Both the position numbers and the translations under genes were made by a program. From positions 4,267-68,266 of the forward strand of contig CAVUFD010000002.1 in NCBI GenBank assembly GCA_963740825.1: a DNA stretch of 64,000 nt, read 5' to 3'. The notes beneath the pieces are model-generated. The model was not told the origin of the DNA and did not search any database. It was given only the letters and a program-made list of their open reading frames with translations. Shown one piece after another: positions 1-49,323 of the stretch (positions within the stretch are counted from its first letter, which is position 1; each line of letters begins with the position of its first letter). The stretch comes from an uncultured Chloroflexia bacterium. GTDB taxonomy: Bacteria > Chloroflexota > Limnocylindria > Limnocylindrales > CSP1-4.

Positions 1-285
1 CGGATCGACCAGTAGACGCTCCCCGGCAGATGGCCAAGAGCGGCACCCCGCATGCGGGAGAAGAACCCGGCGCGCTTCGAGTTTGGTGTCAACGTCATCC
101 CTCGGCACCTCAACGGCGGCCATGCTACGTGATCGCCACGCCCCGACCATTGGTACGAATTCGGCGGACAGCGACGACCAACGTCTCACGCCGAGGCTGA
201 ACTTGGCACGAGGGATCTCCGGTCGCGCTCCTCAGCGTACGAGCGATCGGCGCACGGCTCGGATCGTCGGCGGCCTCCTCATGCC

Positions 286-1374
286 CTAGCGCCGATGTGC
301 ATGCACCTGGATGCTGGCGCCAGTGCCCAACGGTCCCGCAAGGAGCGACCACGCCACCGCAGCCGGGCTGAGGAGCAGGGCGAGCGCCGCGGAGGCGCCG
401 ATCCTGGGCCCAAATCCGACGCTTGGGTCGCGCTTGATGAAGCTGTACAGCTCATCTTGGCCAAAGCCTGAACGGCTGAGTGCGGTCTGCACCAAGCCGA
501 GCACCTCCATCTCTGGATAGAAGGAGTCGATGTGGTCGACTGCGAGGCCTCGGGATTCGAGCAGCGCAACCAGCGATCGCGGCGTGAACTGGAAGAAGTG
601 CCTCGGCAGGTCGAGGTGAAACCACGCATCACCTCCGAGGCGAGCCTGGAGACTCCTTGAATTTGGGACGGAGACCACCAGGCGACCTCCCGGACGAAGC
701 TGTTCACGTGCGCGCTCAATAGCGGCGCCGGGATCCGGAAAGTGCTCGAGCGTATGCCAAATCGTGATGGCGTCATAGCCTCGCTCAAGCGGGGTGGTGA
801 GGTAATCCCCGACCACGACTCTCAGGCCGTACGCGTTTCGGGCAAAGGATGCGGCCGCCTCTGAGAACTCAACGCCAGTCACGTGCCAGCCGGCGTCCCG
901 CGCAGCCGAGAGGAACCGCCCTTTGCCACAGCCGACATCGAGAAGGCGCCCTGGCGTGATCCCGGAGAGCGCCCGAAGCCTGACTGTGTTGTTGATCGTG
1001 TGGAGAATGGCGGCGGCCGACCGACCACGTGCTGCGCCAGAGTAGAAGCCCGTGGCGTATAGCCGGGCGAGGTCATCGCCCTCGGGAGGATCAATCAGCC
1101 ACCGTAGGCCGCATCGACCACACTTGGCGTGTGGGTAGCCGCGAACCAACGCGCGAGACAGCGTGTTGGCCCGACAGGCCGGACATGTCTCTCCACCTGT
1201 AGCCACGAACCGAACGGACCTCTCGTAGTCTGGTTGAGATGCTGGCACGCTGGCCGTATATCGGAATCGCCTTCCTTGTTCATTGTGCCGAATTGCAGGT
1301 TCGGACGCGGCGAACGTGGGCCATACCGATCGCGACCCGAGGGCGGAATCAGTGAGGATCGCGATCGTCGGCAC
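286..1374 (-). CDS. class I SAM-dependent methyltransferase with N-terminal Cys4 zinc ribbon
   Basis: 362-aa ORF. SAM-binding motif LLDVGCGKGRF, and CPACR...CGRCG ribbon at the N-terminus. The real start may be an internal GTG. Confidence 0.6.
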   Translation of the reverse strand: MPTIAILTDSALGSRSVWPTFAASEPAIRHNEQGRRFRYTASVPASQPDYERSVRFVATGGETCPACRANTLSRALVRGYPHAKCGRCGLRWLIDPPEGDDLARLYATGFYSGAARGRSAAAILHTINNTVRLRALSGITPGRLLDVGCGKGRFLSAARDAGWHVTGVEFSEAAASFARNAYGLRVVVGDYLTTPLERGYDAITIWHTLEHFPDPGAAIERAREQLRPGGRLVVSVPNSRSLQARLGGDAWFHLDLPRHFFQFTPRSLVALLESRGLAVDHIDSFYPEMEVLGLVQTALSRSGFGQDELYSFIKRDPSVGFGPRIGASAALALLLSPAAVAWSLLAGPLGTGASIQVHAHRR

Positions 1375-2470
1375 CCGGGGGATCCCGGCCGCGTACGGAG
1401 GCTTCGAGACGCTCGCGTGGGAGCTGTCGACGCGGCTCGCCCAGCGCGGCCACGAGGTGACCGTCTACTGCCGCCGCGGGCGCACGGACGAGTCGATCCC
1501 CGTGCCGGCCGGCGTCAGGCGTCGGTTCCTGCCGTATCTGCCGGGCAAGTACCCGGAGACCGTGAGCCACACCGGCCTGCCGTCATCGACAGCCTGTTCC
1601 GCGGCTACGACGCCATGTGGGTCGGCAACGTCGCCAACGCGGTCTGCTGCGCGGTTCCGAGGTTGCGGGGCACAAGGTCGTGCTCAACGTCGACGGGATC
1701 GAGCGCCAGCGGGCGAAGTGGGGGCCGGTCGGCAGGGCGTGGTACGCGATCGGCGAACGGTTCGCGCTCGTCTACCCGAACGCGATCGTCTCCGACGCCG
1801 ACGTGATCCGCGACTACTACCTGGAGCGCTACGGCAAGCCGTCGACCGTCATCGCCTACGGTGCGCCGCTGCTGGACCGCGAGCCCGTGCCCGACCTCAC
1901 CCGTCACGGCATCGACCCGACATCGAGCCCGGACGCTTCCTGCTCTACGTGAGCAGGCTCGAGCCCGAGAACCAGGCCGACCTCGTGATCCGCGCCTATC
2001 GCGAGGTCACGGGCGACATCCCGCTGCTCATCGTCGGCGACGCGCCGTACGCCGAGACCTTCAAGGCCGGCCTGCGCGAGCTGGCGGCAGGCGACCCCCG
2101 CGTCCGCCTGACCGGCGCGATCTACGGCGACGGGTATCGCGACCTCCAGCGCTCGGCGCTCGCGTACATCCAGGCCACGTCGGTGGGCGGCACGCACCCG
2201 GCGCTCGTCGAGGCGATGGCCGCCGGCAACCTCGTGCTCGCCTTCGGGACGCCCGAGAACCGCGAGGTGGTCGCCGGGACCGGCCTCGTGTTCGCCACGG
2301 AGGGCGAGCTCACGAACTTGCTCCAGGGCGTCGTCGATGCGCCCGACTCGCCGCTGTACGACGCGTTCCGCTCGTCGGCACGCAAGCGCGCGGCAGTCAA
2401 CTACTCGTGGGACGCGGTGACGGACGCCTACCTCGCGCTGTGGACGTCGCTCGGCGCCGGGTCCGCGTGA
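1352..2470 (+). pseudogene. glycosyltransferase family 4 (GT-B), interrupted by about 3 frameshifts
   Basis: GTG start. The GT4 blocks (VRIAIVGTRGIPAAYGGFETLAWELS; AVIDSLFRGYDAMWVGNVANA; KVVLNVDGIERQRAKW; EPGRFLLYVSRLEPEN...EAMAAGNLVLA) sit in three different frames, switching near 1572, 1672 and 1925. Confidence 0.6.
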
Positions 2471-2480
2471 CGGCGGCACG

Positions 2481-4791
2481 GTGACGGCCGCACCGACCCG
2501 CTCGACGTCGATCGTCGGGCCCCTGCTCATCGTCGGCACCGCGTACCTCGTCTTCTTCGCCGGCGCCTACTTCGGCATCTATGACGTCCGGGTCCGGATC
2601 TCGAGCCTCGTCATCGTCGGCGTCGTCCTCGCCCTGTACCTCGTCGCCGCCTGGCGGTCGCCGAGCTGGTTCCCGGCGTCGCGGCTCTGGCCGGCGCTCG
2701 CGATCGGGGTCGGTGTCCTCGCGATCGACACGGTGTTCTCGCGCAACCCGCGGATCTCGCTCGACTTCCTCGCGTACGGCGTCCTGCTGGCCGCGCTGTA
2801 CCTGTTGCTCCGCTCGATCCTCGTCCACCCCGAGCTCCGGGTCCGCCTCGGAGCCGCAATGGTGATCCTCGCGTTCGTCCTGGACGTTGCCTACCTCGCG
2901 GTCGTCGTCTCCGACTGGCGCGAGTACTGGCAGGTGCTCGGCCGGTTCTCGATCCCGCCGCTGCGCCCGTTCTTCGAAGGCCTCACCTACGGCAACCCGG
3001 GGCTCGTGGCGGCGATGGCGGTGCTCGTCTCGGTCTCGGCGAGCGCGCAGCTCGGCGGCGCGACCCGTCGGTCACAGGCCGCGATCGCCGTCCTGTGGGC
3101 GCTCACGACGACCGTCGTGATCGTGTCGGGGACACGCGGTGCCTGGTTGGCGCTCGCGTTGACGGGAGTGGTCGCGCTGGCCATGTGGATCGCCGGTGGC
3201 CGGGCGCGGACGCGACTCGGTGCGCTCGTCGGGACGACGCCCGGGCGGGTCGCGCTCGCAGGCATCGCGATCGTGGGCGTCGCCGGGATCATCGTCTTCG
3301 GGCCTACCGTCGCCGATCGCGTCCTGTTCGGCAACGACGGTGGGCGGATCTCGTACTGGACGGCCGCCTTGCGCATGTTCAGCGACGCGCCGATCACCGG
3401 CGTGGGGCCGGGCATGTGGGCGCCGCAGCGGATCCTGCACACGGCCGAGGGCGAGATCGACTTCTACATCCCCCATGCCCACAACGTGTATCTCCAGACC
3501 GCCGCCGACAGCGGGCTGGTCGGGATCGTCGCCGGCGTGGTCGTGTTCCTCCTGGTGGCGCGCCTCGTGTGGGCGTCGCTCCGGTCCGGCGACCCGGCCG
3601 TCCGGCGCTGGGCCGTGGCCGGGGTGCTGGCCGCCGTCTACTTCGGCGCGCACCAGCTGTTCGACGTGTTCGTGAACATGCCCGCCGCGATCTTCGCGTT
3701 CGCCTTTCCGATCGCCTGGCTCGATGCGGCCGGGGCCGGCGAAGCCTCACCTGCCCGGTGGCCGGCCGCGCTCGGCTCGCGGCGCGCCGTCCTCGCGGCG
3801 GGCGCGCTGGCCGTCGTCGTGGCCATGGGCTGGAGCCTGGCGAGCGAGCGGTCCGCCCTGCAGCTCGACGCCGCCAAGAGCGCCCTCGACGCGGGCGACG
3901 CCGCCCGGGCCGTCGCGCTGGCCGATGACGCGCTCGCCGTCGACCAGTCGATCCCGCCCAACCAGCTGGTCCTCGCGCTGGCGGCCGCCCAGGCGGGCGA
4001 CATCGCCACCGTCGGCCCGGCGCTGGAGGCCGTCGTCGGCGCGGACGGCCTCCCGGCCGCCTGGATCGACCTGGCGTGGCTCCGTGCCGGGGCCGGCGAC
4101 GCGGCGGGCGCCCAGGCCGCCATCGGCGAAGGCCTGCGACTCGGACGCCAGCAGGCGGCCCTCACGCTGGCCGCCGGCGGGGTGTTCGAGCGCCTCGGGG
4201 ATCCGGCGTCGGCGGACCACTGGTACGCGACCGCGATCGCGCAGCTGCCCAGGCTGGCCGCCGACCCCTACTGGCGGGACCCGGCCCGCAAGGACCGATG
4301 GGGCGGGCATCGAAGCCGAGACCGCGGACCGGCTGGCCCCGGAGGAGCGCGTGGACCTGTATCTCTCGGCGGGGGAGCCGGAGCTTGCCAACGAAGCCCT
4401 CGTGGACGTGACCGATCCCGCCGACGAGGCGATGCTGCGGCTGGTGATCGACGCTTGGGGTGGGGACCCGGACGCCCGAGCGACGCTCGACGCCCAGGCG
4501 ATCGCCTCGCCGCGCGATCTCGCCTTGCTGGCCTGGGGTTCGCGGGTGGCCGATCGCGCGGGCGATCCCGACACGGCCGTCCAGTACCGGTTCCTCGCGG
4601 ACATGCAGACCCCGAGCGCCGGTGACGAGGGCAGGGAGGTCGCCGTGGTCACGCGAGGTCCGCCCGCCGCAGGGCATCGCCGGGGCCGTGTGGGCGCCGT
4701 ATGGGATCTACACGTACCGCCGGCCGACGCCCAACGCCCTGCTGCTCAGCGGGATGCCGCAGATCGTCTGCGGGCGCGACTAGGCGCGTGA
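2481..4791 (+). CDS. O-antigen ligase (Wzy_C / PglL-PilO-like) family polytopic membrane protein with C-terminal TPR-like repeats; one frameshift near 4300, 3' end uncertain
   Basis: Many TM helices, followed by the Wzy_C signature GTRGAWLALALTG ... HAHNVYLQTAADSGLVG and an Ala-rich TPR-like tail. The reading frame changes about 4300 (DPARKDRW | AGIEAETADRLAPEERVDLYLSAG). Confidence 0.55.
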
Positions 4792-6368
4792 AGGTCGGGA
4801 GGTCGGGCTCGCGGCCGGCGCGGCGGCGCGCGTGCCGCGAGACCGCCCAGGACGCCGGTCCACGCAGGAACGCGACGAGCACCGCGGGGTTCGCCACGAG
4901 CGCGGCACGCGCGTCGCGCGCGGGGCGACCGCGAGCGCGGGCCGCACGACGACGAGCAGGATCGACACCTGGTACATGAGCGTGAACGGCGCGACGAGCA
5001 GCGCCGCCAGCATCGCGGCCACGAACCCGCGCCGCTCGTCGGCGAGGATCGCCCAGACCGCCGCCACCACGGCCAACGCTGACAGCCCGACGATCAGCGG
5101 CGTCGATTCGAGGACCGTCAGCGAGAGGTTGCCGGACCGCGTGATCTGCCCGGTCGCGATCAGCGCGTCGATCCAGGCGCGATACAGGTCGACGCCCAGC
5201 AGCGCCACGCCGATCAGGGTGCGCGAGGCCGGCGAGGATCGTGCCCGCGAGGGCCCGGCGGCGCCGGACAAGCATCCACAGCAGCACGAGGCCGAGGACC
5301 GGCTTGGGCGTGAGCGCGAGCATGATCCCGAGCGGGATCCCGCGAGCCGCGCCGTCGCGGTCGCGCACGAGGAACACCGACGCCGCGAGCAGCATCGTGA
5401 CCTGCCCCACGACCAGCTCGTACACGACGGGGATGAAGCCCAGCGCGGCGATGGCGATGAGGACGCGGTCGATGGGGTCGAGGTGCCTGGTCTCGATGAC
5501 GAGGCCGGCCAGCAGCAGGACGAGGCCGATGCCCGACATCACCGCGGCGGCGGCGGGGAACGGCAGCCAGGTCAACGGGAGCGCGATCACGCCCGCGAGC
5601 GGGGCGTAGAGGAAGTCGGTGGCGATGACGCCCTTCGCGATGCCTTCGGCGCCGCGTCGGAAGATGTCGACGTCGCCCCCGAACGTCAGGGGCGCGAGGA
5701 TCGCCAGCGCGACGATGCCCATGATCCCGTTCAGCACGGCCAGGGCAAACAGATAGGGCCGGCCGCCGAGTGCCCGGTCCACGGTCGAGACGATCGCGAC
5801 GGCGATGCCGGCGCCCACCTGCGTCCGGCTCGAGGCTCCCGGCAGCGCCGCGAGCAGCAGCCCCATAGGCCAGCGGGTACCACGCGTCGAGGTTGCCGAA
5901 CAGCACCGCGATCGCGAACGGCAGCACCAGCGGCGCGACGGCGATCGCCCGGACCGCCATCGGGAAGCGCCGGATGGCCGGCGCCGACCGCCAGGCGGGC
6001 CGCGACCCAGCGCGAACCCGAGCGTCGCGCCGACGCCCCACAGCACCAGCACGACGCCGTTCGGGCAGCCACGACGACCAGCGTCATCGCCTGGGCGACG
6101 GGCGGCGGGTACGAGTAGAACAGCTCGACGGCGTCGGGCGAGGCGCCCGGCGAGCATCGCCGGGTCGTACGGGGTCTCGCCTGCGAGCACGCGCCGCGCG
6201 CCCTCGAGCAGCAGGGCCAGGTCGAAGCCGGCCTTCGGCGGGCTCGCTCTGCCACAGCGTCCAGCCGATCCAGGCGACGCCCAGCCAGACCACGAGGCCG
6301 GCCACGACCCACGGCCCGAGGCTGTCGGCGCGGAGCCGGCGATCGGTGGTGCGCGTGCCATCCGCCAC
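4780..6368 (-). pseudogene. DUF2029 / GT87-family polytopic membrane glycosyltransferase (copy A), at least 4 frame disruptions
   Basis: Membrane-protein segments are spread over three minus-strand frames: MADGTRTTDRRLRADSLGPWVVAGLVVWLGVAWIGW; GFDLALLLEGARRVLAGETPYDPAMLAG; PMGLLLAALPGASSR...IPLGIMLALTPKPVLGLVLLWML; LIGVALLGVDLYRAWIDALIATGQI... Confidence 0.5.
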
Positions 6369-6378
6369 GGCACCCAGC

Positions 6379-7276
6379 CTAGCGATCGGCCGGCACCCCG
6401 GGCCGAGCGGCGACGGCCGGGGCGGTCGCTTCGTGCCGTGGGCCGCCGAACGCCGCCAGCAGCGTCAGCAGCTGGTAGACGAGGAGCCGGGGATAGGCGA
6501 ACACCGACAGCACGACCGCGAGTGGCCAGCCGTACCGGGTCGGGGCGTAGCGCAAGCGCCAGGAACGCCAGCACGACGACGGTGGCGAGCCACAGGGCCG
6601 GGTGGATGGCGAACGGCGAGATGTTGCGGAACGCGAACGCGCCGTTGAGCCACTCGAGGCGGACGTACGCGATGCGTCGCCGCCGGCTCCAGCACGAGCT
6701 GGACCAGGCCGAGCGCGAGCAGCCACGCCACGAGGTGCAGCAGCGGGCGAAGCTCCCGCCGACCGATCCAGTAGACCGCGACCAGCACGGGCAGGAGCTT
6801 GAGGCTGCCGGCGACCGCGACGCTGGCGGGCGTGCCGAGCGGTCAGCATCAGCATCACGACCAGCTCGGCCTGGCCGACGCTGAACGCCCACAGGATCGG
6901 GAGCGCGAGGCAGCCGATGGCGATCAGCACCGGCTCGCGGAGGCCGATCCGCCGGACGGTCAGCACGAACGCTGCCGTGATCACCACCTGCCAGATCGCC
7001 GCGGCGACCGGGAACGGCAGCAGGGCGAGCGGGCGGAACAGGATGGCGAGCAGCGGCGGGTTGACGTACGGGCCGACGCCCTCGCGTCGTCGATGGGACG
7101 TACAGGGGCAGGCCCTCGTTCAGGCGGGTGCCGGCGTCGTAGTACAGGCGGGTGTCCGCGAACGGGTCGGTGGTGAGGTGGAGCACCATCGCCTGCAGGC
7201 CGATGGCCAGCCCGAACAGCGCGACGACGATGGCGAAGTAGCGCAGCAGGCGGCGGCCGCCCGGCGACAGCGGCAT
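6379..7276 (-). pseudogene. DUF2029 / GT87-family membrane glycosyltransferase (copy B), at least 3 frame disruptions
   Basis: N-terminus MPLSPGGRRLLRYFAIVVALFGLAIGLQAMVLHLTTDPFADTRLYYDAG. Later TM-like blocks (IAYVRLEWLNGAFAFRNISPFAIHPALWLATVVVLAF; LVAVYWIGRRELRPLLHLVAWLLALG; MVITAAFVLTVRRIGLREPVLIAIGCLALPILW) lie in other frames. Confidence 0.45.
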
Positions 7277-7407
7277 CGATTCGGCGGTCAGCACCCGCGC
7301 ACGATACGCCGCGTCCGCGCCCCTGCGCGAGGCGACGGCAGGTGGGTCCGGGTAGCCAATTCGTACCCCCATGAATGGCCCGGGTCCGGTGCTAGGCTGC
7401 ACCGGCC

Positions 7408-9046
7408 GTGCGGATCCCCGTGGCCCTGTACCTGCTCGCGCTCGTGGCCCGGCTCGCCGTCGCGGCCCTGTTCCCCGACCCCGCGTACCCCGATTCCTTC
7501 TACTACGTGGACGTCGCGCGCCAGCTCGCCGCGGGGCACGGATTCAACGTCGACTTCATCTGGATCTTCCCCGAGGTCGGCGGTGCGATCCCCGCCAATC
7601 CCATCCTGCCGATCCCGTCCAACGCGCACTGGATGCCGCTCGCCTCGATCGTCCAGGTGCCGTTCATCTGGCTGCTCGGCCCGACGGCGATGGCGTCGGC
7701 CCTGCCGTTCGCGTTCATCGGGGCGCTGGCCGCGCCGCTCGCGTGGGCGATCGGGCGGGACGCCGGCGCGCCGCGGTTCGTCTCGATCGGCGCCGGGATC
7801 CTGACCGCCTTCCCGGCGCTGTCGTTCGTGTACATGGCCCAGCCGGACAACTTCTCGCTGTACCAGCCGCTGGTCGCCGGGCTCGCTGTGGCTGGCCGGA
7901 CGCGGTCTGCGTGGCCACCCGCGCGACTTCGTCCTCGCCGGGCTCCTCGCCGGCGTCGCGACGCTGTCGCGCAACGACGGCGTGCTCGTGCTGGCCGTCA
8001 TCGTCGCGACCGTGCTGTGGGACCGGGTCCGTGCCCGCTGGGCGTCCGGCGGGAAGCCGGCCCGGCCGCCCCGGATCCCCCTCGCCGCGGCCGCCGGCTC
8101 GGTGGGCCTGTTCGTGCTCGCGGTCGTCCCCTGGTACGCGCGCCAGCTGGCGGTGTTCGGCCAGCTCTCGCCATCGACCTCGTCGGGCCGCGTGCTGTTC
8201 ATCCGCGACATCAGCGAGTGGAACAGCATCACGATCCCGGCCACGCTGGACCACCTCCTCGGGATGGGCATCGGCCCGCTGCTGCTGACCCGGGTCGGTG
8301 GCCTGGTCGCCGCGGCGTTCATCTTCTCGATCCTGGTCGGCGTGCTCGTGTTCGTCCCGTTCATGGTCATCGGGGCGTGGCGCCGGCGGCGCGACGCGCT
8401 GTTCGGGCCGTTCCTGGGCTACGTCGTGCTGCTGTTCGCGTTCAGCGCGATCGTGTCGGCGGTCCACGTCCCGGGCGGGACGTTCATCCACTCGGCCGTC
8501 GCGCTGGCCCCGCAGGGGTACGTGCTCGCGCTCGAGGGGATCGTCGCCGGCGCGGCCTGGCTCGCGGCACGACGGCGGGGCTGGGACTCGACCTCGGCGG
8601 CACGCGTGTTCGTCGGCGGGGCCGTCGCGTTCGGCGTCCTCGCCGCGGTCGTGGGCGCGAGCGCGGTGCACCGGAGCTGGGACGCCAAGCGCCAGAACAT
8701 GCAGGCCGTCGCGACGGCGCTCGACGCCGCGGGCGCGCCCGCGACCGACCGCGTGATGTCCATCGACGCCTCCGGCTACCGCTACTGGACGGGTCATCCG
8801 GGCGTGGTGCTGGTCAACGACCCGCTCGACACCGTGGAGCGGGTCGCGCGCGCGTACGGGATCCGGTGGCTCGTCCTCGAGCCGAAGGACAGCGTCGAGG
8901 CGGTGCGCGAGATCCTGGTCGACGACCAGCGGCCGCCGTGGGTCGGCCCGCCGATCCTCGAGCGCGACGGCGTCTCGCTCTATCCCGTCTGCCTCGACGC
9001 CGGTGACACCCGGTGCGCCACCGCCCTCGCGGGCACCAGCCGATGA
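7408..9046 (+). CDS. GT-C fold ArnT/PMT-family (COG1807, GT39/83-like) membrane glycosyltransferase #1; one frameshift near 7880
   Basis: GTG start. N-terminus MRIPVALYLLALVARLAVAALFPDPAYPDSFYYVDVARQLAAGHGF..., many TM helices, and a soluble C-terminal domain (...GIRWLVLEPKDSVEAVREILVDDQRPPWVGPPILERDGVSLYPV). It is transcribed divergently from the DUF2029 genes. Confidence 0.6.
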
Positions 9047-10690
9047 GCCGGCGCGAGGCGTGGGTCACGGCCCTGGTCGTGTTCGCGGTCGCGATCGCCG
9101 TGCGCGTCGTCGCCGCATCGGTCATCACGTTCCCCAAGCCCGAGGACACGGCCTACTACGTCGGCGTCGCGCGGAACCTCGTCGAGGGCCGCGGCCTCGT
9201 GTCCGACGCCCTGTGGAGCTACGGCACGCCGCCGCTCGTGTTTCCGCGGCCGGCGTTCGAGGTCTGGCTGCCGCTGCCGTCGCTGCTCGCGGCCATCCCG
9301 ATGGCCTCTGGCGGGCGGGCCGCGCCCCATCCCGCTCGAGGCGGCGATGCGGGCGGGCCAGGTGGTCTCCGTCGTCGCCGGCGCGATCGTGGCCGTCCTC
9401 GCCTGGCGCCTCGCCGCCGACGTCGCGGCGGAGCGCGGCCTTCCCGTCGGCCGGGCGCGAACGCTCGCGGCCGGAGCCGGGCTCACCGCGGCGGTGTACC
9501 TGCCGCTCCTGCTCCACTCCTCGCTGCCCGACTCCACGATGCTGTTCGGCGCGCTGGTCCTCGGCGCCGCGCTGCTGATGACCCGCGTCCTGCGCGACCC
9601 GCGCGGCGGGCGAGCGCTGGATGCCCGGCTGCTCGGGATCGGCGTGCTCATCGGCCTCGCGGCCCTCACGCGCAACGAGGCCGTCTGGCTCGCGCTGACG
9701 TGGGCGTGGCTGGCCTGGCGCGCCAGAGGCGCGCCGCGTGGCGTGCGGATCCGCCTCATCGGCATCGTCGCGGTCGTGAGCCTGCTCGTGTTCGCGCCGT
9801 GGGCGATCCGCGACTGGGCCGTGTTCGGGAACCCGCTCCCGGGGCAGGCCGCGACCAACGCGCTGTCGCTGAGCGGGTTCGACATCTTCGCCTGGAACCA
9901 GCCGCCGACCCTCGCCCGCTACCTCGCCGCCGGACCCGGGGGCCTGCTCGAGATGCGCGTCACCGGCCTCGGCCACAACCTGTTCAACGTCCTGCTGTTC
10001 CTGGGCATCCCGGTGTCCCTCATCGGGCTGTCGCGTGCCCTGGCAGGGGCGCGACCGGGCCCTCCGACCAGTCCTGCTGCGTGGCCGTGCTGACGTTCCT
10101 CGCCACCAGCCTGCTGTTCCCGGTCGCGACGACGTGGGGCACGTTCCTGCACGCCTCGGCGCCGGTCGCGGTGCTGCTGATCGTGTCCGCGCTCGGCGCG
10201 CTCGACGCGGGCATCGCCGCGCTGGGGCGGCGACTGGGCTGGACGCGGCCCGTGGCGTGGCTCGGGCCCGCTGCTGGCGATCTTCGCGTCGGCGCTGTTC
10301 TCGGTCGCGCTCCTGCCAGGCTTCGGCGGCAGCGCGCGATGCCTACGGCTCGCACCTATCGGGTACTGGCCGAGCAGATGGCGTCCATCGGGGCCCCGCT
10401 CGACGGCAGCGCCCCCGTCATCCACGACTTCCCGATCTGGCTCGCCGAGACCGAGCGCGTCCCCACCCTCGCGCTGCCCGACGAGGCCCCGTCGGACGTC
10501 CTCGACCTCGCGACCCACTTCGGCGCCAAGTGGCTGATCGTCGCCAAGGCCGAGCACGGCCAGTGGCCGGCGGTCCTCGACGGGCCGGACCCCGACGCGT
10601 CCTGCTTCGAGGAGGTCCTGCTGCCGATCCCCGCCGACCCAGCGGACGCGGAGGCGATCGAGGGCATCCGCGTGTTCCGGATCGCGTGCG
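9043..10690 (+). pseudogene. GT-C ArnT/PMT-family membrane glycosyltransferase #2; at least 4 frameshifts; 3' end uncertain
   Basis: The ATG overlaps the stop of gene #1 (ATGA). N-terminus MSRREAWVTALVVFAVAIAVRVVAASVITFPKPEDTAYYVGVARNLVEGRGL. Later blocks (AGQVVSVVAGAIVAVLAW...; VAVLTFLATSLLFPVATTWGTF; LLAIFASALFSVALLPGFGG; KWLIVAKAEHGQWPAVL) are in shifting frames. No in-frame stop precedes the downstream kinase. Confidence 0.45.
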
Positions 10691-10763
10691 CGGGCGTTGC
10701 GACCACGAACGGGCGCGACCGCGTGGACGGCACGCACCGCGGCGCCGGCGAGGCCCTCGCCGT

Positions 10764-11898
10764 GATGGCCGCGGCCGATACACTCCGCGCGATGGATGCA
10801 CCCAGGGGGGAGCCCGCGGCGAGCCGCTACGACGAGCTCCACGCACAGGCCGCCGACGCCTTGGGCTTCGCCGCGAACACGCTGCGCGGCATCCGCGATC
10901 GCTACCGCCAGGCGTACATCGACGAGATGGCGCGCTGGGAGGACCTGGACCAGGACCTCGTGGGGCTCGAGCGAGCCGGCGGGCTCCTGACTGCAGAGGC
11001 CGACCTTGCCTCCGTCGCCCCCAGCGATGGCGCGGCCGTGGCCGCGGAGGCGGGCGCCGCCGACGCGCAGCTCCGCATGGCCCGCACCGATGCCGTGGAG
11101 TCGACCGACGCCCTCGGCCGCCACGAGGCCGAGCTGTCGCGCCTCGAGCTCGCCATCCGCAACCTCGAGACGACCTGGCTGTTCGTGGAGCGGGGCGACG
11201 CGTCGCTCGTCACCGACCAGGACATGCCCAGGCTGCCCAGCGAGCTGCAGATGCGGATCGTCGAGGCACAGGAGGGCGAGCGCGTCCGCCTCGCCCAGGA
11301 GATCCACGACGGACCGGCGCAGGCGCTGTCGAACGCGATCTTCCAGGTCGAGTTCATCGACCGGGTCTTCGACTCGGATCGCGACATGGCCCGGACCGAG
11401 CTGCGGTTCCTGCGCGAGCTGCTGCGGCGCGAGCTCGGCGACCTTCGCACCTTCATCGGCCAGCTGCGGCCGCCCGTGCTGGTCGAGCTCGGCCTCGATG
11501 GGTCGATCGCCGACACGGTCGCCAACCAGGCGGCGCTGTCGGGCCTGCGCATCACGACCCAGTTGGTGGCCCCCGCGGGCGACATCCCCGAGGCTACGCA
11601 AACCGTCGTACTTCGCGTCGTGCAGGAGGCCCTGCAGAATGTCCGCAAGCACGCGGGCGCGACGAACGTGGTGGTCGCCACGCTGCTGGACGGTGGAGAA
11701 TGGGTGTTGGAGGTCCGCGACGACGGTCGCGGGTTCGATACCGGAGCGGTCGCGGCGCGAGGTCGTCGCAACTTCGGGCTCCAGTTCATGCGCGAGCGGG
11801 CCGAGCTTGTCGGCGCACGCTTTGAAGTACGTTCGCGGCCAGAGGCGGGCACGGTCGTCCGGCTGGCGATTCCGATGACGCGAAAGGAGAGCGGATGA
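10764..11898 (+). CDS. cytoplasmic DegS-like sensor histidine kinase (coiled-coil N-terminus, HisKA_3, HATPase_c)
   Basis: No TM segment. H-box RVRLAQEIHDGPAQALSNAIFQ, N-box VVQEALQNVRKHAGA, G-boxes DDGRGFD and GRRNFGLQFMRERAELVG. The start at the ATG near 10764 is inferred. Confidence 0.65.
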
Positions 11899-12638
11899 CC
11901 GAGTACCAGGGCCCCGAGCGCCGAAGGGGCAATTCGGACCGGCGCAACCAGTCGTACGAACGGGTGCGGATCGTCATCGTCGACGACCACGCCCTGTTCC
12001 GGGTCGGCATCCGCCAGATCCTCGAGCGGGAGCCCGACTTCGAGATCGTCGCCGAGGCCGATGACGCCCGGTCGGCGATGGATGCGGCGTTCGCGACCAA
12101 CCCCGACGTGATCCTGATGGACCTCTCGCTGCCCTCGCCCGGCGGCATCGAGACGACCCAGCGGGTCAAGCGCGAGCTCCCGGCGGCGGCGATCGTCGTC
12201 CTGTCGACGGAAGAGGACGAGGACGCGCTGTTCGACGCCATCAAGGCCGGCGCGGCCGCGTTCATCCTCAAGGACATCGCGCCCGAAGACCTCGTGATGA
12301 TCATCCGCCGCGTCGTCGCCGGCGAGTACCTGATCAACGACAAGGTGTTCGCCCGGCCCGCGGTCGCCTCGCGCGTGCTCAAGGAGTTCCGCGAGCTCGC
12401 CGTCTACGGCCAGGAGGCCGCCCCGATCTTCGCGCCGCTGTCGCCGCGCGAGGTCGAGATCCTGGACAACATCGCGCAGGGCATGACCAACAAGCAGGTC
12501 GCCTACGCCCTGTCGATCTCCGAGCAGACCGTCAAGAACCACATGAGCTCCATCCTCCGGAAGCTGTCCGTCAACGATCGGACCCAGGCGGTCGTGTACG
12601 CGATGCGCCAGGGCTGGATCCGGATGCCGGAGGACTGA
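11895..12638 (+). CDS. NarL/LuxR-family response regulator (REC + LuxR HTH, unusually long interdomain linker)
   Basis: ATGA overlap with the kinase stop. RIVIVDDHALFRVGIRQIL...VILMDLSLP (REC), and a LuxR HTH (LSPREVEILDNIAQGMTNKQVAYALSISEQTVKNHMSSILRKL) separated from REC by about 70 aa. Confidence 0.8.
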   Translation: MTEYQGPERRRGNSDRRNQSYERVRIVIVDDHALFRVGIRQILEREPDFEIVAEADDARSAMDAAFATNPDVILMDLSLPSPGGIETTQRVKRELPAAAIVVLSTEEDEDALFDAIKAGAAAFILKDIAPEDLVMIIRRVVAGEYLINDKVFARPAVASRVLKEFRELAVYGQEAAPIFAPLSPREVEILDNIAQGMTNKQVAYALSISEQTVKNHMSSILRKLSVNDRTQAVVYAMRQGWIRMPED

Positions 12639-12671
12639 GGGGAAGCGCCCGAGCGGGGGAAGCGTCACGCG

Positions 12672-13848
12672 ATGACCACGCCCGCCGACCCGCCGCCCGC
12701 CTCCGGGGCCCAGCTAGCCGTCGTCCTGGGCGCGGATGTCGTCGGCCTCGACCGCGAGCTGACCGAGATCGACATGCTCGTCGGACAGGCGAAGGCCGAG
12801 GCCGTCCGCCACGAGCAGAAGCGCGCGCAGCTGGCCGAGAAGCTGTCGTCCGCCGAGTCGGCGCGAGGGCACCGAGGCCTGGGCGCAGCTCGTCACGCTG
12901 ACGCGGCGATCCGTGCTGATGGAGGCGCAGGTCGACGTCCTCGAGGGCAAGCGCCGCGCGCTCGCCCGTCATCGCGACGCCATCGCGTCGCTCGTGGACG
13001 CCCTCGACGCCTTGCCGGCTGCCGAGGGGGCCCCGTCCGACGTGGCCGGTGCCGCGGCGGCCTCCGCGTCCCTGTCGCGGGTGGTGATGAGCGCCCAGGA
13101 GGACCTGCGACGCGACATCGCCCGCGCGATGCACGACGGCCCCGCGCAGTCGCTGACCAACATCGTGCTCCAGGCCGCGATCGTCGAGCGGCTGATGGAC
13201 CGCGAGCCCGACAGCGCGAGGGGCGAGCTGCGGCTGCTGGTGGCGATGGTCCAGCAGACCCTCGACGCGACCAAGAACTTCATCTTCGACGTCCGCCCGA
13301 TGGTGCTCGACGACCTGGGCGTGGTCCCGACGCTCCGGCGCATGGCGCGCGACCGGGGCCGGAAGGCAAAGATCCCAGTGGAGTTCGACTCGCTCGGCCA
13401 GGACCGGCGGCTGCCGATGGACATGGAGAGCACGATCTTCCGGATCCTCGACGAGGCCCTGGCGGCCTACCTCGGCCTGCTCCCCGATCGCGTGCTGGTG
13501 CATCTGGACTGGACGGACGAGCTCGAGGCCCGCGTGGTCGCCGAGCGCTCGGCGGCGATGCCGGGCGACGGCGAGGCGCTGCCCGAGGTCCCGACCGGGG
13601 ACGTGCCCGACGCGATCAAGCAGATGATCCAGGACCGCCACGACGCCCACCAGGCCGCCGTGGAGGCGGCCGAGCACGCCGCGATCGTGGAGCTGCCGGC
13701 CGGCGCCCTCAAGGACGTGACCGATCGTGCCTCGTCGATCGGCGGACGCGTGGAGCTCCTGGCGGGCGGCGGCGAGCTGCGCCTGCTGGTTCCGCTGCCG
13801 CGGGAGACGGCCGCGACGACCGGTGGGGGCGCGATCCGGGCGTCATGA
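12672..13848 (+). CDS. second DegS-like HisKA_3 protein with degenerate ATP-binding domain (putative pseudokinase/phosphatase partner); frameshift near 12866
   Basis: Coiled-coil N-terminus and H-box RRDIARAMHDGPAQSLTNIVLQ. The C-terminal domain lacks recognisable N, G1 and G2 boxes. No TM segment. Confidence 0.55.
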
Positions 13849-14159: not shown

Positions 14160-14330
14160 ATGGCGCTCATCACCTCGCTGCTCGCCTCGTTCCAGAAGGA
14201 CGAGGAAGGCCAGGGTCTCGCCGAGTACGCGCTGATCCTCGCCCTCATCGCGATCGTCGCGATCGTTGCCCTCATCTTCCTGGGCAACCAGGTCTCGTCG
14301 ATCCTGTCGACGGTCGGCGACTCGATCTAG
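14160..14330 (+). CDS. flp: Flp-family type IVb prepilin (56 aa)
   Basis: MALITSLLASFQKDEEG|QGLAEYALILALIAIVAIVALIFLGNQVSSILSTVGDSI. Classic G-XXXX-EY Flp motif, with an SD gggagg 8 nt upstream. Confidence 0.85.
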   Translation: MALITSLLASFQKDEEGQGLAEYALILALIAIVAIVALIFLGNQVSSILSTVGDSI

Positions 14331-14522: not shown

Positions 14523-14687
14523 ATGTTCAATGCACTGATCGCTCTCATCAATCGTGACGAGGAAGGCCAGGGTCTCGCCGAGTACGCGCTGATCCTCGCC
14601 CTCATCGCGATCGTCGCCATCGTGGCGCTGATCTTCCTGGGCAACCAGGTCTCCACGATCCTCTCGACGGTCGGCGACTCGATCTAA
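14523..14687 (+). CDS. flp: Flp-family prepilin paralog 2 (54 aa)
   Basis: MFNALIALINRDEEG|QGLAEYALILALIAIVAIVALIFLGNQVSTILSTVGDSI. The mature part differs from flp1 by a single residue (S/T), while the leaders differ. SD AGGAGGTG. Confidence 0.85.
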   Translation: MFNALIALINRDEEGQGLAEYALILALIAIVAIVALIFLGNQVSTILSTVGDSI

Positions 14688-46766: not shown

Positions 46767-47428
46767 CTACCGCTGAGCCTCGACCTGGTGCGGGATCCCC
46801 GCCTCGTCGAGCGCCGCTGCCAGGAGCGATGCATCGATCGCCCCCGATCGCAGGATCGCGGGGCGATCGGTCGTGCAGTCCACGACGGTCGAGGCCGGGC
46901 CGCCGCGGATCGGGCCGCCGTCGATGACCAGCGCGATCGCGTCGCCGAGCGTCTCCGCCACCTCGCTCGCGTCCGCGGCGTCGGGCTGCCCCGACAGGTT
47001 GGCCGAGGTCGTCGGCAGCGGGCCGAGGGCCGCGGCCAGCGCCCGCGGCGCCGGGTGGTCAGGGACGCGGACGCCGATCGTGGGCGCGCCCGCGGCGAGG
47101 ACGCGCGGCAGCCGGGCGTCGGGGTGAACCGGCAGCACGAGGGTCAGGCCGCCCGGCCAGAAGCGATCGGCGAGGAGCTGCCGCGGCCGGCGACCGAGAC
47201 GCCCAGCGTCCAGGCCTGTGCCGCGTCGGCGAGCAGCACCGCGACCGCCTTCTCGGGAGGCCGCCGCTTGGCGGCGAACAGGCGCTCGATCGCGTCGGGC
47301 AGCGCGAGGTCGGCGGCGATCCCGTAGACGGTGTCGGTGGGGATGGCGACGATCCGCCCGGCCCGGAGGTGCTCGATCGCCTCGGCGCGTGCCGCGTCCC
47401 CGTCGGGGAGGACCCGGGTCGCCGTCAC
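46767..47428 (-). CDS. tsaC: L-threonylcarbamoyladenylate synthase (TsaC/YrdC/Sua5 family); frameshift near 47180
   Basis: N-terminus IVAIPTDTVYGIAADL and C-terminus PLPTTSANLSGQP...STVVD lie in two frames. Confidence 0.7.
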
Positions 47429-48381
47429 GAGGCCGACGCCACCGCGACGCGGGCGGCCTCCGCGAGCCGCTCGCCGCTGCGCGCCGCCTCCTCGGGCGAC
47501 GCGAGGACCAGCGCCTCGATGAGGGCCCCGACGCCGTCCGCCTCGACGGGCGCGGCCACGTACCGCCCGGCCGCCCGGACCACGGCGGGGGCCGTGGCCA
47601 TCGCCGCCCCATGCCCGGCGTCGCCGATCATCTCGATGTCGTTCAGCGCGTCGCCGACGGTCATCACCTGGCCCATCGGGACCCGCGCGCGGTTCGCCAG
47701 CCAGGCGACCGCCCGGCCCTTCGACACCCCCGGCGCGACGAACTCGAGGAACCGCGGGTGCGAGACCGTGGCCCCGGCTCGCCCGGCGAACGTCCGCCGC
47801 GCCTCCTCGATCAGCTCCATCGGCCTCGGCGGATCCCCGACCGCGATGACCTTGGACACCGGCTTCCGGATCGCGGCCGCGAGGTCGCCCACGATGTCCG
47901 CCTCCGGCCCGAGGTAGCCCGAGTAGTCCTCGAACCTCGAGTCGCCGCGCCACACCACGATCCGCTCCAGGTCGTTGACATGCGGATCGAGGCCGCGTTC
48001 CAGGCACCACGCGATCGCGGCCCGCGCCACGTCGGCGGCCATCGGGGTGTGGTGCAGGATCCGGCCCACGGGCGCCCGGAACGGGAGGTCGGCGGCGTCG
48101 ATGACGGCGGCAGCGACCGGCATCGCGCGGATGACGGCGCCCTGGTGGCCGATGATCGGGTCCGTCAACCCCAGCTGGTGCGCGTAGACCGCCGCCGAGC
48201 TCGCCATGCGGCCGGTCGCGATCGAGACGTGGACGCCGCGCCGGACTGCCTCGCGGATCGCCTCGGCCGTGCGCTCGGACACCCGGAAGTCGGGGCCGAT
48301 CACCGTCCCGTCGAGATCGAGGGCGATGAGCCGGACCGGGAACGCCGGGGCGGGCCGGTCGGCCAAGGGCAGCCCGTCCAT
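47425..48381 (-). CDS. Cof-type HAD-IIB family hydrolase
   Basis: LIALDLDGTVIG ... MTVGDALNDIEM. Confidence 0.75.
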   Translation of the reverse strand: MDGLPLADRPAPAFPVRLIALDLDGTVIGPDFRVSERTAEAIREAVRRGVHVSIATGRMASSAAVYAHQLGLTDPIIGHQGAVIRAMPVAAAVIDAADLPFRAPVGRILHHTPMAADVARAAIAWCLERGLDPHVNDLERIVVWRGDSRFEDYSGYLGPEADIVGDLAAAIRKPVSKVIAVGDPPRPMELIEEARRTFAGRAGATVSHPRFLEFVAPGVSKGRAVAWLANRARVPMGQVMTVGDALNDIEMIGDAGHGAAMATAPAVVRAAGRYVAAPVEADGVGALIEALVLASPEEAARSGERLAEAARVAVASAS

Positions 48382-48404
48382 CCGGTCCGGGCGGGCGCTC
48401 GCGC

Positions 48405-49319
48405 TCACGCCGGTGACAGGTCGATCCGCACGAGCCTCGGGCGACCCGCCAGGTCCGGCGTCACGGTGCATCGCGCCCTCGGGATCCGGTCCGCGACCGC
48501 GCGCACGGTCGCGTCGCCCTGGTCGGCGCCGATCTCGAGGAACGCGACCCCGCCGATCTCGGTGACGGTCGGCAGGCGGTCGATCAGGCGGCGCACGACG
48601 TCGAGGCCGTCCGGCCCGCCGTCCAGCGCGGACGTCGGCTCGAACGCGATCTCGGGCGACAGGCGCGGCAGCTCGTCGGTCGGGACGTACGGGAGGTTCG
48701 CGCACACGACGGCGTACGGCGGCTCGACGTGGTACGGCAGCAGGTCGGCGGCGACGAACACCATCCGATCGGCCACGCCGTGCCCGACGGCGTTCTCGCG
48801 AGCCAGCTGGAGGGCCTCCGCCGACACGTCGACGGCGATGACCAGCACCTGGTCCGCCATCTTCCGGCGCCGCAGGGCGGCGAGCAGCGAGATCGCGATG
48901 GCCCCGGTCCCGGTACCGACGTCCACGACCCGGAGCGCCGGCGCGCCGTGGGCCCGGGGAGTGGTCGTCAGCCGCGTCGTGATCTCGGCCAGCGCGGCGT
49001 CGACGAGCAGCTCCGTCTCGGGCCGCGGGATGAGGGCGCGCGAGTCGGTCGCGAACGCGAGCCCGTGGAACTCCCGGAAGCCGCGGATGTAGGCGACCGG
49101 CTCGCCCCGCTCGCGGCGCTCGACGGCGGCCTCGAACGCCAGCCGGGCGTCGGGCCCGACGGGCGCGTCCGGGTGGGCGAGGATCCCCGTGCGGTCCATG
49201 CCCAGCGTCTGGCCCAGCAGCAGCTCCGCGTCGAGCCGCGCGGATCCGGAGCCCGATGCGGCGATGCGCTCGGTCGCCACGCGGACGAGCTCGGACACGG
49301 TCGATGCGGCGTCGGCCAT
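48405..49319 (-). CDS. prmC: release-factor glutamine N5-methyltransferase PrmC/HemK
   Basis: VVDVGTGTGAIAISL ... VVCANLPYVP (the NPPY-type motif). Confidence 0.8.
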   Translation of the reverse strand: MADAASTVSELVRVATERIAASGSGSARLDAELLLGQTLGMDRTGILAHPDAPVGPDARLAFEAAVERRERGEPVAYIRGFREFHGLAFATDSRALIPRPETELLVDAALAEITTRLTTTPRAHGAPALRVVDVGTGTGAIAISLLAALRRRKMADQVLVIAVDVSAEALQLARENAVGHGVADRMVFVAADLLPYHVEPPYAVVCANLPYVPTDELPRLSPEIAFEPTSALDGGPDGLDVVRRLIDRLPTVTEIGGVAFLEIGADQGDATVRAVADRIPRARCTVTPDLAGRPRLVRIDLSPA

Positions 49320-49323
49320 CGCG

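What the first reader, a model, noticed from the sequence alone, without database searches (positions are those of the whole stretch)
1352..10700. Frame disruptions are about 10-fold enriched in the glycosylation island relative to the rest of the window
There are at least 16 frame switches in about 9.4 kb: GT4 x3, Wzy_C x1, DUF2029-A at least 4, DUF2029-B at least 3, GT-C#1 x1, GT-C#2 at least 4. The remaining 54 kb has about 7, including tadB, tadC, comFC, tsaC and the essential prfA. Breaks in prfA and tsaC show the assembly has homopolymer indel errors (for example CCGGGGCC to CCGGGCC). The strong local excess suggests either strain-level heterogeneity collapsed into a consensus or genuine decay of the island. 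All coding calls here should be treated as provisional.
Basis: seen in the sequence. Interest (0 to 1): 0.5.

Follow-up and report, generated by a model that had tools for sequence, protein, structure and literature searches.

The report
Assembly indel errors clustered in glycan genes
The many broken reading frames in this sugar-coat gene region are real in the sequence, but they are almost certainly single-base mistakes of a long-read metagenome assembly rather than dying genes, so the genes should be read as intact and the deposited protein calls there are wrong.

Summary
Frameshift-aware alignment to intact orthologues finds about 26 frame-changing sites (about 28 indels of 1-2 nt) in 1352-10720. 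The other 54.6 kb has 6-7. That is 22-27-fold, p about 1e-16.

The cause is technical, not decay:
- There are no in-frame stops.
- After frame correction the proteins match 394 of 395 codons that are invariant in intact orthologues.
- Private substitutions are not elevated in the zone.
- Essential prfA and tsaC carry the same kind of lesion.
- About 75% of events are in the +1 class, the same bias as in 43 related Nanopore-only MAG loci, which are 5-10 times richer in such junctions than short-read MAGs.

The events are not at homopolymers, repeats or any enriched motif.

The window comes from a 1.15-Mb Chloroflexota (Ca. Limnocylindrales) contig. Positions 1352 and 5782 are true boundaries of a replaceable GT4-Wzy-GT87 cassette. 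An independent contig is 100% identical up to 1351 and then diverges. The error-dense zone runs on into the core GT-C pair.

Why errors concentrate here is inferred, not shown. Strain heterogeneity or low effective depth is most likely, with some context-systematic miscalls. Biological interest is low, but it is a useful annotation warning.

The parts
1..1351 (-). Shared flank: an intact SAM-dependent methyltransferase (ORF 286-1374, product matched 289-1206) plus the intergenic region. GC is about 66%. No frame disruption.
   Evidence: Pfam Methyltransf_23, E = 1.5e-29. 100.000% nt identity to L162 with no indel over 1-1351. 306/306 aa identical.
1352..1353 (.). Left boundary of the replaceable cassette. 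Identity to L162 drops from 100% to about 87% exactly at the GT4 start codon (GTG here, TTG in L162).
   Evidence: The later differences fall mostly on third codon positions.
1353..2470 (+). GT4 glycosyltransferase with three single-base deficits (about 1580, 1672-1678, 1914). The net change is -3, so ORF 1283-2470 stays open.
   Evidence: 78% identity to L018 and 88% to the intact 411-aa L162 GT4, with no stops. Pfam.
2481..4770 (+). Wzy_C (O-antigen-polymerase/ligase-like) protein with a long C-terminal extension. The N-terminal 1.6 kb is clean. There are two +1 events at about 4290-4350 and 4670-4708.
   Evidence: L001 reference is clean over 2457-4097; L059, L043 and L025 references place the two events. 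Pfam.
4776..5782 (-). GT87-B (DUF2029 family), probable GTG start at about 5782. Three events: about 5221-5236 (-2), 4905 (-1) and about 4867 (-1).
   Evidence: L017_1651 59% and L019 49%..
5746..5782 (.). Right boundary of the cassette. Homology to L001, L163 and L164 begins at exactly 5782, and L162 ends at about 5704. About 605 nt (the 3' half of 'Cp') is absent relative to L001.
5783..6380 (-). 'Cp': the N-terminal half (aa 1-196) of a third GT87 gene. It is the densest hotspot, with 7 events in about 400 nt (6245, 6148, 6075, 6065, 6007, 5967 each +1; 5861 is -2).
   Evidence: the orthologues agree against the window at each site. 20 of 20 invariant columns are kept.
6421..7330 (-). GT87-A with four +1 events (about 7078, 6840, 6674, 6556). 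The start coordinate is approximate.
   Evidence: the Illumina-MAG orthologue L017_8533_9621 is matched collinearly across frames -2, -3, -1, -2, -3. 38 of 39 invariant columns are kept.
7396..9043 (+). GT-C#1 (PMT_2-like, core gene) with one +1 event at 7879-7882.
   Evidence: seven references all place it at 7879, with 90% identity to L001. 143 of 143 invariant columns are kept. L163 has its own extra C at the same spot.
9043..10762 (+). GT-C#2 (core gene) with eight indels at six frame-changing sites: 9305 (+1), 10031 and 10037 (-1 each), 10080 (+1), 10267 (+1), 10336 and 10345 (+1 each), 10708 (+1).
   Evidence: 92% identity to the intact 572-aa P0001 across every inter-event segment.. 193 of 193 invariant columns are kept.
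10762..12638 (+). HisKA_3 histidine kinase and NarL-type response regulator. Both are clean and mark the end of the error-dense zone.
   Evidence: no internal frameshift. The response regulator is 100% identical to L161..
12648..12862 (+). Two further single extra bases outside the zone: 12648 (intergenic) and 12862 (inside the next gene).
   Evidence: direct comparison with the 97.9%-identical JGI contig L161.
19525..22017 (+). Frame changes in tadB (about 19525), tadC (about 20652) and comFC (about 22017).
   Evidence: The tadC extra base is private to the window. The tadB extra C is shared with L163 but not with L164.
47178..52080 (-). Frame changes in tsaC (about 47178, -1) and prfA (about 52080, +1, at the GGQ motif).
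   Evidence: the Sua5_yciO_yrdC and RF-1 domains span the junctions..

Best explanation
The frame disruptions are consensus indel errors of a long-read (most probably Nanopore-only, Flye/Medaka-type) metagenome assembly. They are not mutations in the organism.

The genes are a Wzx/Wzy-type glycan cassette (GT4, Wzy, GT87-B), further GT87 genes and a conserved pair of GT-C glycosyltransferases. They are intact in the lineage and most likely in this organism too.

Shown:
- The lesions are only 1-2-nt indels, about 75% of them extra bases.
- They are private to this assembly at nearly every site.
- They are not accompanied by stops or substitutions.
- They are of the same kind as the lesions in essential prfA and tsaC elsewhere in the window.
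- They match the signature and clustering seen in sibling long-read MAG contigs, but not in short-read MAGs.

Inferred, for the reason they pile up in 1352-10720: the stretch lies in and next to a strain-variable cassette with sharp recombination boundaries at 1352 and 5782. Reads supporting this particular version are therefore probably few or mixed with those of related strains, and the consensus is locally poor. A minor, context-systematic component also exists, because sister assemblies carry their own extra base at some of the same spots.
For: 1. Orthologues in short-read MAGs and in the closest relative have each gene in one frame. This holds for L017 and L025. The contig carrying P0001 (93% aa) has an intact GT87 (303 aa), GT-C#1 (545 aa), GT-C#2 (572 aa) and kinase (377 aa).

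2. There are no in-frame stops. Every inter-event segment, even one of 16 aa, matches orthologues at the normal identity.

3. Frame-corrected proteins keep 20/20, 38/39, 143/143 and 193/193 columns that are invariant in 20-40 intact orthologues.

4. Window-private substitutions are 14 per kb inside the zone and 23 per kb outside, while private short indels concentrate inside.

5. prfA and tsaC are hit by the same lesion type. A 97.9%-identical independent contig lacks the extra bases at 12648 and 12862.

6. Forty-three long-read MFD MAG loci have 0.25-0.50 frameshift-like junctions per kb, against 0.02-0.10 in ten short-read MAG loci. Their events are clustered and 72.5% are in the +1 class. 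The window is 70-75% +1 class.

7. L162's version of the cassette has an intact GT4 but at least 11 frameshifts in Wzy, exactly where the window's Wzy is clean. Both are clean in the shared flank.

8. Homopolymer density, GC and candidate motifs are the same inside and outside the zone.

9. The MFD-LR catalogue is Nanopore-only (Flye, then one Medaka round). Its authors report error effects at low coverage (PMC12313526). About 40x is needed for a near-finished R10.4 consensus (PMC9262707).

10. The cassette genes are present in only 2-4 of 53 related loci. The boundaries at 1352 and 5782 are exact.
Against: No reads are available, so depth, allele frequency and strain mixture in 1352-10720 are not observed. 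The cause of the local excess is therefore inference.

The error-dense zone extends about 5 kb beyond the cassette into core genes. There the nearest relative is uniform and nothing marks heterogeneity.

The sequencing platform of the source contig is not documented here. It is inferred from the contig length (1.15 Mb) and from the shared error signature.

'Cp' lacks its 3' half relative to three relatives. That could be a real truncation, so one gene remnant may truly be non-functional.

The extra C in tadB is shared with L163. This could in principle be inherited rather than a recurrent error.
Confidence: 0.9

Rival explanations
1. Genuine decay. The glycosylation cluster is being pseudogenised in this organism, and the frameshifts are real fixed mutations.
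For: Many hits fall in functionally linked genes. 'Cp' is structurally truncated relative to L001, L163 and L164. The cassette genes are dispensable across the lineage.
Against: Only 1 of 395 invariant codons is changed, against about 20 indels in the same 5 kb. By established knowledge, bacterial substitutions outnumber indels roughly ten-fold, which would predict tens of changes at those codons.

There are no stops, and there are no indels longer than 2 nt apart from the Cp truncation. The bias is toward insertions, whereas bacterial pseudogenes are deletion-biased. GC3 is still 0.95 or more in every fragment, and private substitutions are not elevated.

Essential prfA and tsaC carry the same lesions. 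The core genes GT-C#1 and GT-C#2, kept in 53 of 53 loci, are hit as hard as the cassette.
Confidence: 0.04
2. The excess is driven mainly by sequence context, for example a lineage-specific DNA modification or hard-to-call contexts in these membrane-protein genes. On this view local depth and strain mixture are not the main cause.
For: Sister long-read assemblies from other samples carry their own extra base at the same spots: 7879 (W GGG[C]TCG, L163 GG[C]GTCG), 10336 (W, L163 and L164), 6007 (W and L164), about 9305-9325 (all three), and tadB (W and L163).

L164 also has 12 private short indels in 5782-8782 and none in 10782-13782. Across 43 MFD loci the glycosylation side is 1.8-fold richer.
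Against: No 4- or 5-mer is enriched at the events after multiple-testing correction, and motif densities are alike inside and outside. Most events are private to the window. Most other MFD loci lack insertions at these sites. L162 and the window err in different genes of the same cassette. A 1.8-fold lineage-wide trend is far from the 22-27-fold seen here.
Confidence: 0.25
3. Phase variation or programmed frameshifting. The breaks would be contingency switches (slipped-strand mispairing in glycosyltransferase genes) or recoding sites.
For: Phase-variable glycosyltransferases with homopolymeric tracts are well known in other bacteria (established knowledge).
Against: There are no runs of 6 nt or more in the island. 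None of the ten 5-nt runs coincides with an event. Run length near events is 2.68 against 2.60 at random positions. There are no simple-sequence repeats at the events. Single genes carry up to 8 breaks. Orthologues are in a single frame at all sites.
Confidence: 0.01
4. The consensus reflects real polymorphic indel alleles segregating among co-occurring strains. On this view some strains truly carry some of the frameshifts.
For: The region borders a strain-variable cassette. Metagenome consensus can mix haplotypes.
Against: The substitution and constraint arguments against decay apply here too. The same lesion type occurs in prfA and tsaC. The signature equals the generic noise of sibling long-read assemblies.
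Confidence: 0.05

Closest known systems
Indel/frameshift errors in Nanopore-only metagenome assemblies (Flye + Medaka; gene truncation as measured by IDEEL-type tests)
   Same: The lesions are single-base indels that break or fuse gene calls. They depend on coverage, are absent from short-read assemblies of relatives, and occur in essential genes too (PMC9262707, PMC12313526).
   Different: The classic description stresses homopolymers. Here events are not homopolymer-associated. They are strongly localised (22-27-fold) and mostly insertions. Because GC3 is about 95%, the old frame stays open after a +1 event, so ORF-length or coding-density checks would not flag them.
Flexible glycosylation ('metagenomic') islands: Wzx/Wzy-type glycan cassettes replaced between strains by recombination in conserved flanks
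   Same: The cassette 1352-5782 (GT4, Wzy, GT87-B) continues left of the window in L162 with a Wzx flippase, a DegT aminotransferase and methyltransferases. It occurs in few relatives and has base-exact boundaries, with a 100% identical flank next to a version diverged to 70-87% identity. Literature on such islands: PMC3458243, PMC10734472.
   Different: Under-recruitment or low depth over the cassette is not observed here, only inferred. The error-dense zone also covers adjacent core genes.
Phase-variable glycosyltransferase contingency loci (poly-G/C tracts, e.g. Campylobacter, Neisseria, Haemophilus)
   Same: Frame changes in surface-glycan genes.
   Different: There are no long tracts, there are many breaks per gene, and the breaks sit at arbitrary contexts.
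Pseudogene-rich decaying loci or genomes
   Same: Multiple frameshifts per gene, and one truncated gene copy ('Cp').
   Different: No stops, no substitution excess, an insertion bias, codon bias intact, and essential genes affected alike.

Membership tests
Long-read consensus indel artefact | Lesions are short indels only, without accompanying stops or substitutions | tested here: met
   All events are 1-2 nt with no in-frame stops. 394 of 395 invariant codons are kept. Private substitutions are not elevated.
Long-read consensus indel artefact | Lesions are private to the assembly; relatives and independent assemblies are in frame | tested here: met
   Exceptions are a few spots where sister long-read contigs have their own extra base, and tadB, which is shared with L163.
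Long-read consensus indel artefact | The same lesion type hits essential genes that must be functional | tested here: met
   prfA (RF-1 domain across the junction, at the GGQ motif) and tsaC.
Long-read consensus indel artefact | Signature shared with assemblies of the same technology and absent from short-read assemblies | tested here: met
   MFD long-read loci have 0.25-0.50 per kb and are 72.5% +1 class. Short-read loci have 0.02-0.10 per kb. L162 and L163 are heavily affected.
Long-read consensus indel artefact | Read pile-ups show low depth, mixed support or no support for the indels | not testable with these tools
   No reads are available. The platform of the source contig is inferred from its 1.15-Mb length.
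Classic homopolymer-length error | Events sit in homopolymer runs, preferentially long ones | tested here: not met
   0 of 10 runs of 5 nt or more are hit. Mean longest run near events is 2.68 against 2.60 at random. Many insertions are of the T[C]G, G[C]G or A[T]G type.
Decaying pseudogene cluster | Relaxed constraint: substitutions at conserved sites, premature stops, a deletion-biased indel size spectrum | tested here: not met
   About 75% of events are in the +1 class (19 single extra bases plus two 2-nt deficits).
Decaying pseudogene cluster | Structural loss of gene parts | tested here: inconclusive
   'Cp' lacks about 605 nt (its 3' half) relative to L001, L163 and L164 at the cassette boundary 5782. 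This could be real or an assembly join.
Phase-variable contingency locus | A long homopolymer or simple-sequence tract at the switch site, usually one per gene | tested here: not met
Programmed ribosomal frameshift | A single conserved recoding site shared by orthologues | tested here: not met
   Orthologues are in one frame. The window has up to 8 sites per gene.
Flexible glycosylation island (cassette 1352-5782) | Variable gene content among close relatives, with conserved flanks and sharp boundaries | tested here: met
   A, B and C occur in 2-4 of 53 loci. The boundaries are exact at 1352 and 5782.
Flexible glycosylation island (cassette 1352-5782) | Reduced read recruitment or coverage over the island in the source metagenome | not testable with these tools
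   No reads.

The most novel reading that the evidence does not exclude
The indels are real and very recent. An indel-only mutational burst would have inactivated the whole envelope-glycan cluster, including the two core GT-C genes, in this population, too recently for substitutions to accumulate.

A milder variant is that the recurrent same-site insertions in three sister assemblies are the footprint of a lineage-specific DNA modification that derails basecalling.
Probability: 0.04. Interest if true: 0.5.

Novelty: not a real feature. Interest (0 to 1): 0.12.

Why it matters
Biologically the finding is ordinary. The genes are intact in the lineage, and the 'decay' is an assembly artefact.

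It matters practically in three ways:
1. In a 72-75% GC genome with GC3 of about 95%, a +1 insertion leaves the old frame open. Gene callers therefore emit long plausible ORFs, such as a 917-aa 'GT87' and a 961-aa 'GT-C/histidine-kinase fusion', instead of truncated ones. Coding-density and length-ratio checks miss the problem.
2. Such products are already in public protein collections.
3. The errors concentrate in exactly the strain-variable surface-glycan region that people mine for diversity. They are common in sibling long-read MAGs of this lineage. Comparative claims about pseudogenes, fusions or gene loss there need read-level confirmation.

Tried and rejected
1. Suspected at first that the frame switches were an illusion of high GC, since long ORFs span the region. 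Rejected by the GC3 plot, the Viterbi and the orthologue alignments.

2. Homopolymer or GC composition as the cause of the excess. Densities are equal inside and outside, and events are not at runs.

3. A motif or methylation-site cause. No k-mer is significant.

4. Tandem repeats or phase variation. None at the events.

5. A patchwork or chimeric consensus visible as an alternating nearest relative. Not seen; L163 is nearest throughout.

6. Looked for a near-identical, accurately assembled strain covering the island. The best hit is 93% aa (P0001), but its DNA is not retrievable. The metagenome scan gave at most 77% aa. Only 11.7-13.7 kb has a 98% counterpart (L161).

7. Tried to retrieve the source record. 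Only the contig length and the sources NCBI and ENA were learned.

8. Junction 14148 was rejected as a frameshift; it is adjacent small Flp-type pilin genes. Junction 7403 was rejected as upstream of the GT87-A start.

9. DNA-only multiple alignment for calling indels outside genes was too noisy to use in intergenic regions.


Full report
**What the window is.** The window is 72% GC. Relatives fetched with the GT-C#1 protein are all Chloroflexota MAGs of Ca. Limnocylindrales. Many belong to the Nanopore-only Microflora Danica long-read catalogue ('MFD...' isolates), and others are short-read MAGs. Exact look-ups show that window proteins sit on a 1,153,248-nt contig held by NCBI and ENA, so the source is a long-read assembly.

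**Checking the observation.** A GC3 phase plot and a codon-usage Viterbi that tracks the six frames both show repeated frame changes between 1356 and 10329.

I wrote a frameshift-aware protein-to-DNA aligner. I ran it with several intact orthologues per gene and inspected DNA columns. The results per gene are:
- GT4: three -1 events. The net change is -3, which is why ORF 1283-2470 stays open.
- Wzy: two +1 events in its C-terminal part.
- GT87-B: three events.
- A truncated third GT87 ('Cp', 6380-5783): seven events in about 400 nt.
- GT87-A: four events.
- GT-C#1: one event.
- GT-C#2: eight indels at six frame-changing sites.

That is about 28 indels in 9.37 kb.

**The rest of the window.** Junction analysis gave candidates, which I then tested:
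- 12862 is proven by L161, a 97.9%-identical independent contig. L161 also shows an intergenic extra base at 12648.
- In tsaC and prfA the Pfam domains run across the junction.
- The tadC insertion is private to the window.
- tadB and comFC are likely. 43991 is ambiguous.
- 14148 is just neighbouring small genes.

The rates are 3.0 per kb against 0.11-0.13 per kb. That is 22-27-fold, p = 3e-16 to 2e-18.

**Errors or decay?** Several independent lines point to errors.

1. The genes are intact elsewhere. Short-read MAG loci have each gene in one frame. The closest relative of GT-C#2 is P0001, at 93% aa. Its 6.4-kb contig has full-length GT87, GT-C#1, GT-C#2 and kinase genes in the same order.

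2. There are no in-frame stops. Each segment between two breaks, even one of 16 aa, matches the orthologue at the usual 92%.

3. After frame correction the window's proteins agree with columns that are invariant among 20-40 intact orthologues at 20/20 (Cp), 38/39 (GT87-A), 143/143 (GT-C#1) and 193/193 (GT-C#2). That is one change in 395 codons, against about 20 indels in the same 5 kb. By established knowledge, bacterial substitutions outnumber indels about ten-fold. Neutral decay would therefore have changed tens of these codons.

4. I ran a relative-rate scan against L163 (90% nt) with L164, L001 and L012 as outgroups. Window-private substitutions are 14 per kb in the zone and 23 per kb outside it. 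Private short indels are concentrated in the zone. The excess is indels only.

5. About 75% of events are in the +1 class (19 single extra bases plus two 2-nt deficits). This is the opposite of the deletion bias of real bacterial pseudogenes. The same lesion type breaks essential prfA, at its GGQ motif, and tsaC.

**Is it a property of the technology?** I applied the same junction test to all fetched loci of 20 kb or more. The 43 MFD long-read loci have 0.50, 0.33 and 0.25 frameshift-like junctions per kb (left side, GT-C pair, right flank). The ten short-read loci have 0.105, 0.06 and 0.024. In the long-read loci the events are visibly clustered, and 72.5% are of the +1 class, as in the window.

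Three further ENA contigs with Flye-style names behave alike. L163 carries about 8 private short indels per kb over most of 13 kb. L164 has 12 in 5782-8782 and none in 10782-13782. L162 has at least 11 frameshifts in its Wzy gene.

The catalogue's paper states that assemblies were made with Flye (--meta, --nano-hq) and polished with one round of Medaka only. It also reports error effects in low-coverage MAGs (PMC12313526). About 40x is needed for a near-finished R10.4 consensus (PMC9262707).

**Not homopolymers, repeats or motifs.** None of the ten runs of 5 nt or more in the island is hit. The longest run within 8 nt of events averages 2.68, against 2.60 at random positions. Many insertions are of the T[C]G, G[C]G, C[G]C or A[T]G type. 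There are no simple repeats at the events. No 4- or 5-mer is enriched after correction. Run density, GC and candidate motifs are the same inside and outside the zone. This removes phase variation as an explanation.

**Why here?** This part is inference. The 'island' is two things.
- GT4, Wzy and GT87-B have orthologues in only 2-4 of 53 related loci.
- Cp and GT87-A occur in 18-23 of 53.
- GT-C#1 and GT-C#2 occur in 53 of 53.

L162 is an independent 10.6-kb contig (ENA ERZ25039533). It is 100.000% identical to window 1-1351, with no mismatch and no indel. It diverges exactly at the GT4 start codon. Identity then falls to about 87% and further to about 70%, with mainly third-position differences. 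L162 ends at about 5704. L001, L163 and L164 all begin to align at exactly 5782.

So 1352 and 5782 are base-exact boundaries of a replaceable cassette. In L162 this cassette continues leftwards with a Wzx flippase, a DegT aminotransferase and methyltransferases. That is a classic flexible glycan island.

L162 and the window err in different genes of the same cassette, and both are clean in the shared flank. This fits a model in which version-specific sequence gets fewer or mixed reads and hence a poor consensus.

There are caveats:
- The dense zone continues 5 kb into core genes, where nothing in the sequence marks heterogeneity.
- At a few spots sister long-read assemblies carry their own extra base at the same place: 7879, 6007, 10336, about 9305-9325, and tadB. 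Part of the noise is therefore context-systematic.
- 'Cp' lacks its 3' half relative to three relatives. This may be a real truncation or an assembly join.

**Consequences for annotation.** GC3 is about 95%, so T is rare at third positions. After a +1 insertion the old frame therefore rarely meets a stop. As a result the mechanical ORFs 4649-7402 (917 aa), 7408-9006 (532 aa) and 9013-11898 (961 aa, an apparent GT-C/histidine-kinase fusion) are open but wrong. The mis-framed 714-aa Wzy ORF is already a singleton cluster in the public protein collection.

**Verdict.** The homopolymer mechanism is not supported. The frame disruptions are an assembly artefact of low biological interest. The underlying locus is an ordinary strain-variable Wzx/Wzy-type glycan cassette next to a conserved GT-C pair and a two-component system.

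Noticed in passing
window 1352 and 5782; L162:1-10587: Base-exact boundaries of a replaceable glycan cassette (GT4-Wzy-GT87-B). L162 is 100% identical to window 1-1351, then diverges from the GT4 start codon. L001, L163 and L164 homology starts at 5782. L162 shows the cluster continues left of the window with a Wzx flippase, a DegT aminotransferase and three methyltransferases.
   Followed up: yes
window 5783-6380 (-): 'Cp' is only the N-terminal half (aa 1-196) of a GT87 gene. About 605 nt is missing relative to L001, L163 and L164, ending exactly where GT87-B starts. It is either a real truncation by cassette replacement or an assembly join. It is also the densest indel hotspot (7 in about 400 nt).
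   Followed up: partly
window 7879, 6007, 9305-9325, 10336, 19525; L163, L164: At these spots sister long-read contigs from other ENA assemblies carry their own extra base at the same place. Examples: W GGG[C]TCG against L163 GG[C]GTCG; and W GCG[C]GAT, L163 GCG[C]GAC and L164 GCC[G]GAC against L001 GCC-GAC. The tadB extra C is identical in W and L163. This suggests a context-systematic error component, possibly linked to a lineage-specific DNA modification.
   Followed up: partly
window 4649-7402 (-), 7408-9006 (+), 9013-11898 (+), 2481-4625 (+): Long open but wrong ORFs created by +1 insertions in a GC3-rich genome. They include an apparent 961-aa GT-C/histidine-kinase fusion. The mis-framed 714-aa Wzy product is already in public protein collections as a singleton cluster.
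   Followed up: yes
window 7396-12638 and 53 related loci: The GT-C#1, GT-C#2, HisKA_3 kinase and NarL-type response regulator block is conserved and syntenic in 53 of 53 Limnocylindrales loci examined. The two GT-C genes are paralogues (about 33% identity). The function of the conserved pair next to a two-component system is unknown.
   Followed up: partly
window 14199-14330, 14556-14686, 14840-14949: Three paralogous units of about 130 nt (80-93% identity to the equivalent L001 units). They appear to be tandem small Flp/Fap-type pilin genes upstream of the tad (T2SSE, tadB, tadC) locus. The Pfam Flp_Fap hit is below the gathering score.
   Followed up: partly
L163:3859-17300: This 110-kb ENA contig (ERZ25039555 contig_14230) carries about 8 private 1-2-nt indels per kb across kinase, regulator and tad genes. 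Its gene calls are badly fragmented, which makes it a much noisier assembly than the window.
   Followed up: partly
window 1-2000: GC drops to about 66% over the methyltransferase flank, against 72-75% elsewhere. The codon model-1355 'non-coding' although the 362-aa ORF is intact. This atypical composition is consistent with laterally exchanged glycan-modification genes.
   Followed up: no
window 43809-43991 (-): A possible +1 frame change in the C-terminal tail of a Glycos_transf_4 (MraY/WecA-like) gene. The Pfam domain does not reach the junction, so it is unresolved.
   Followed up: partly
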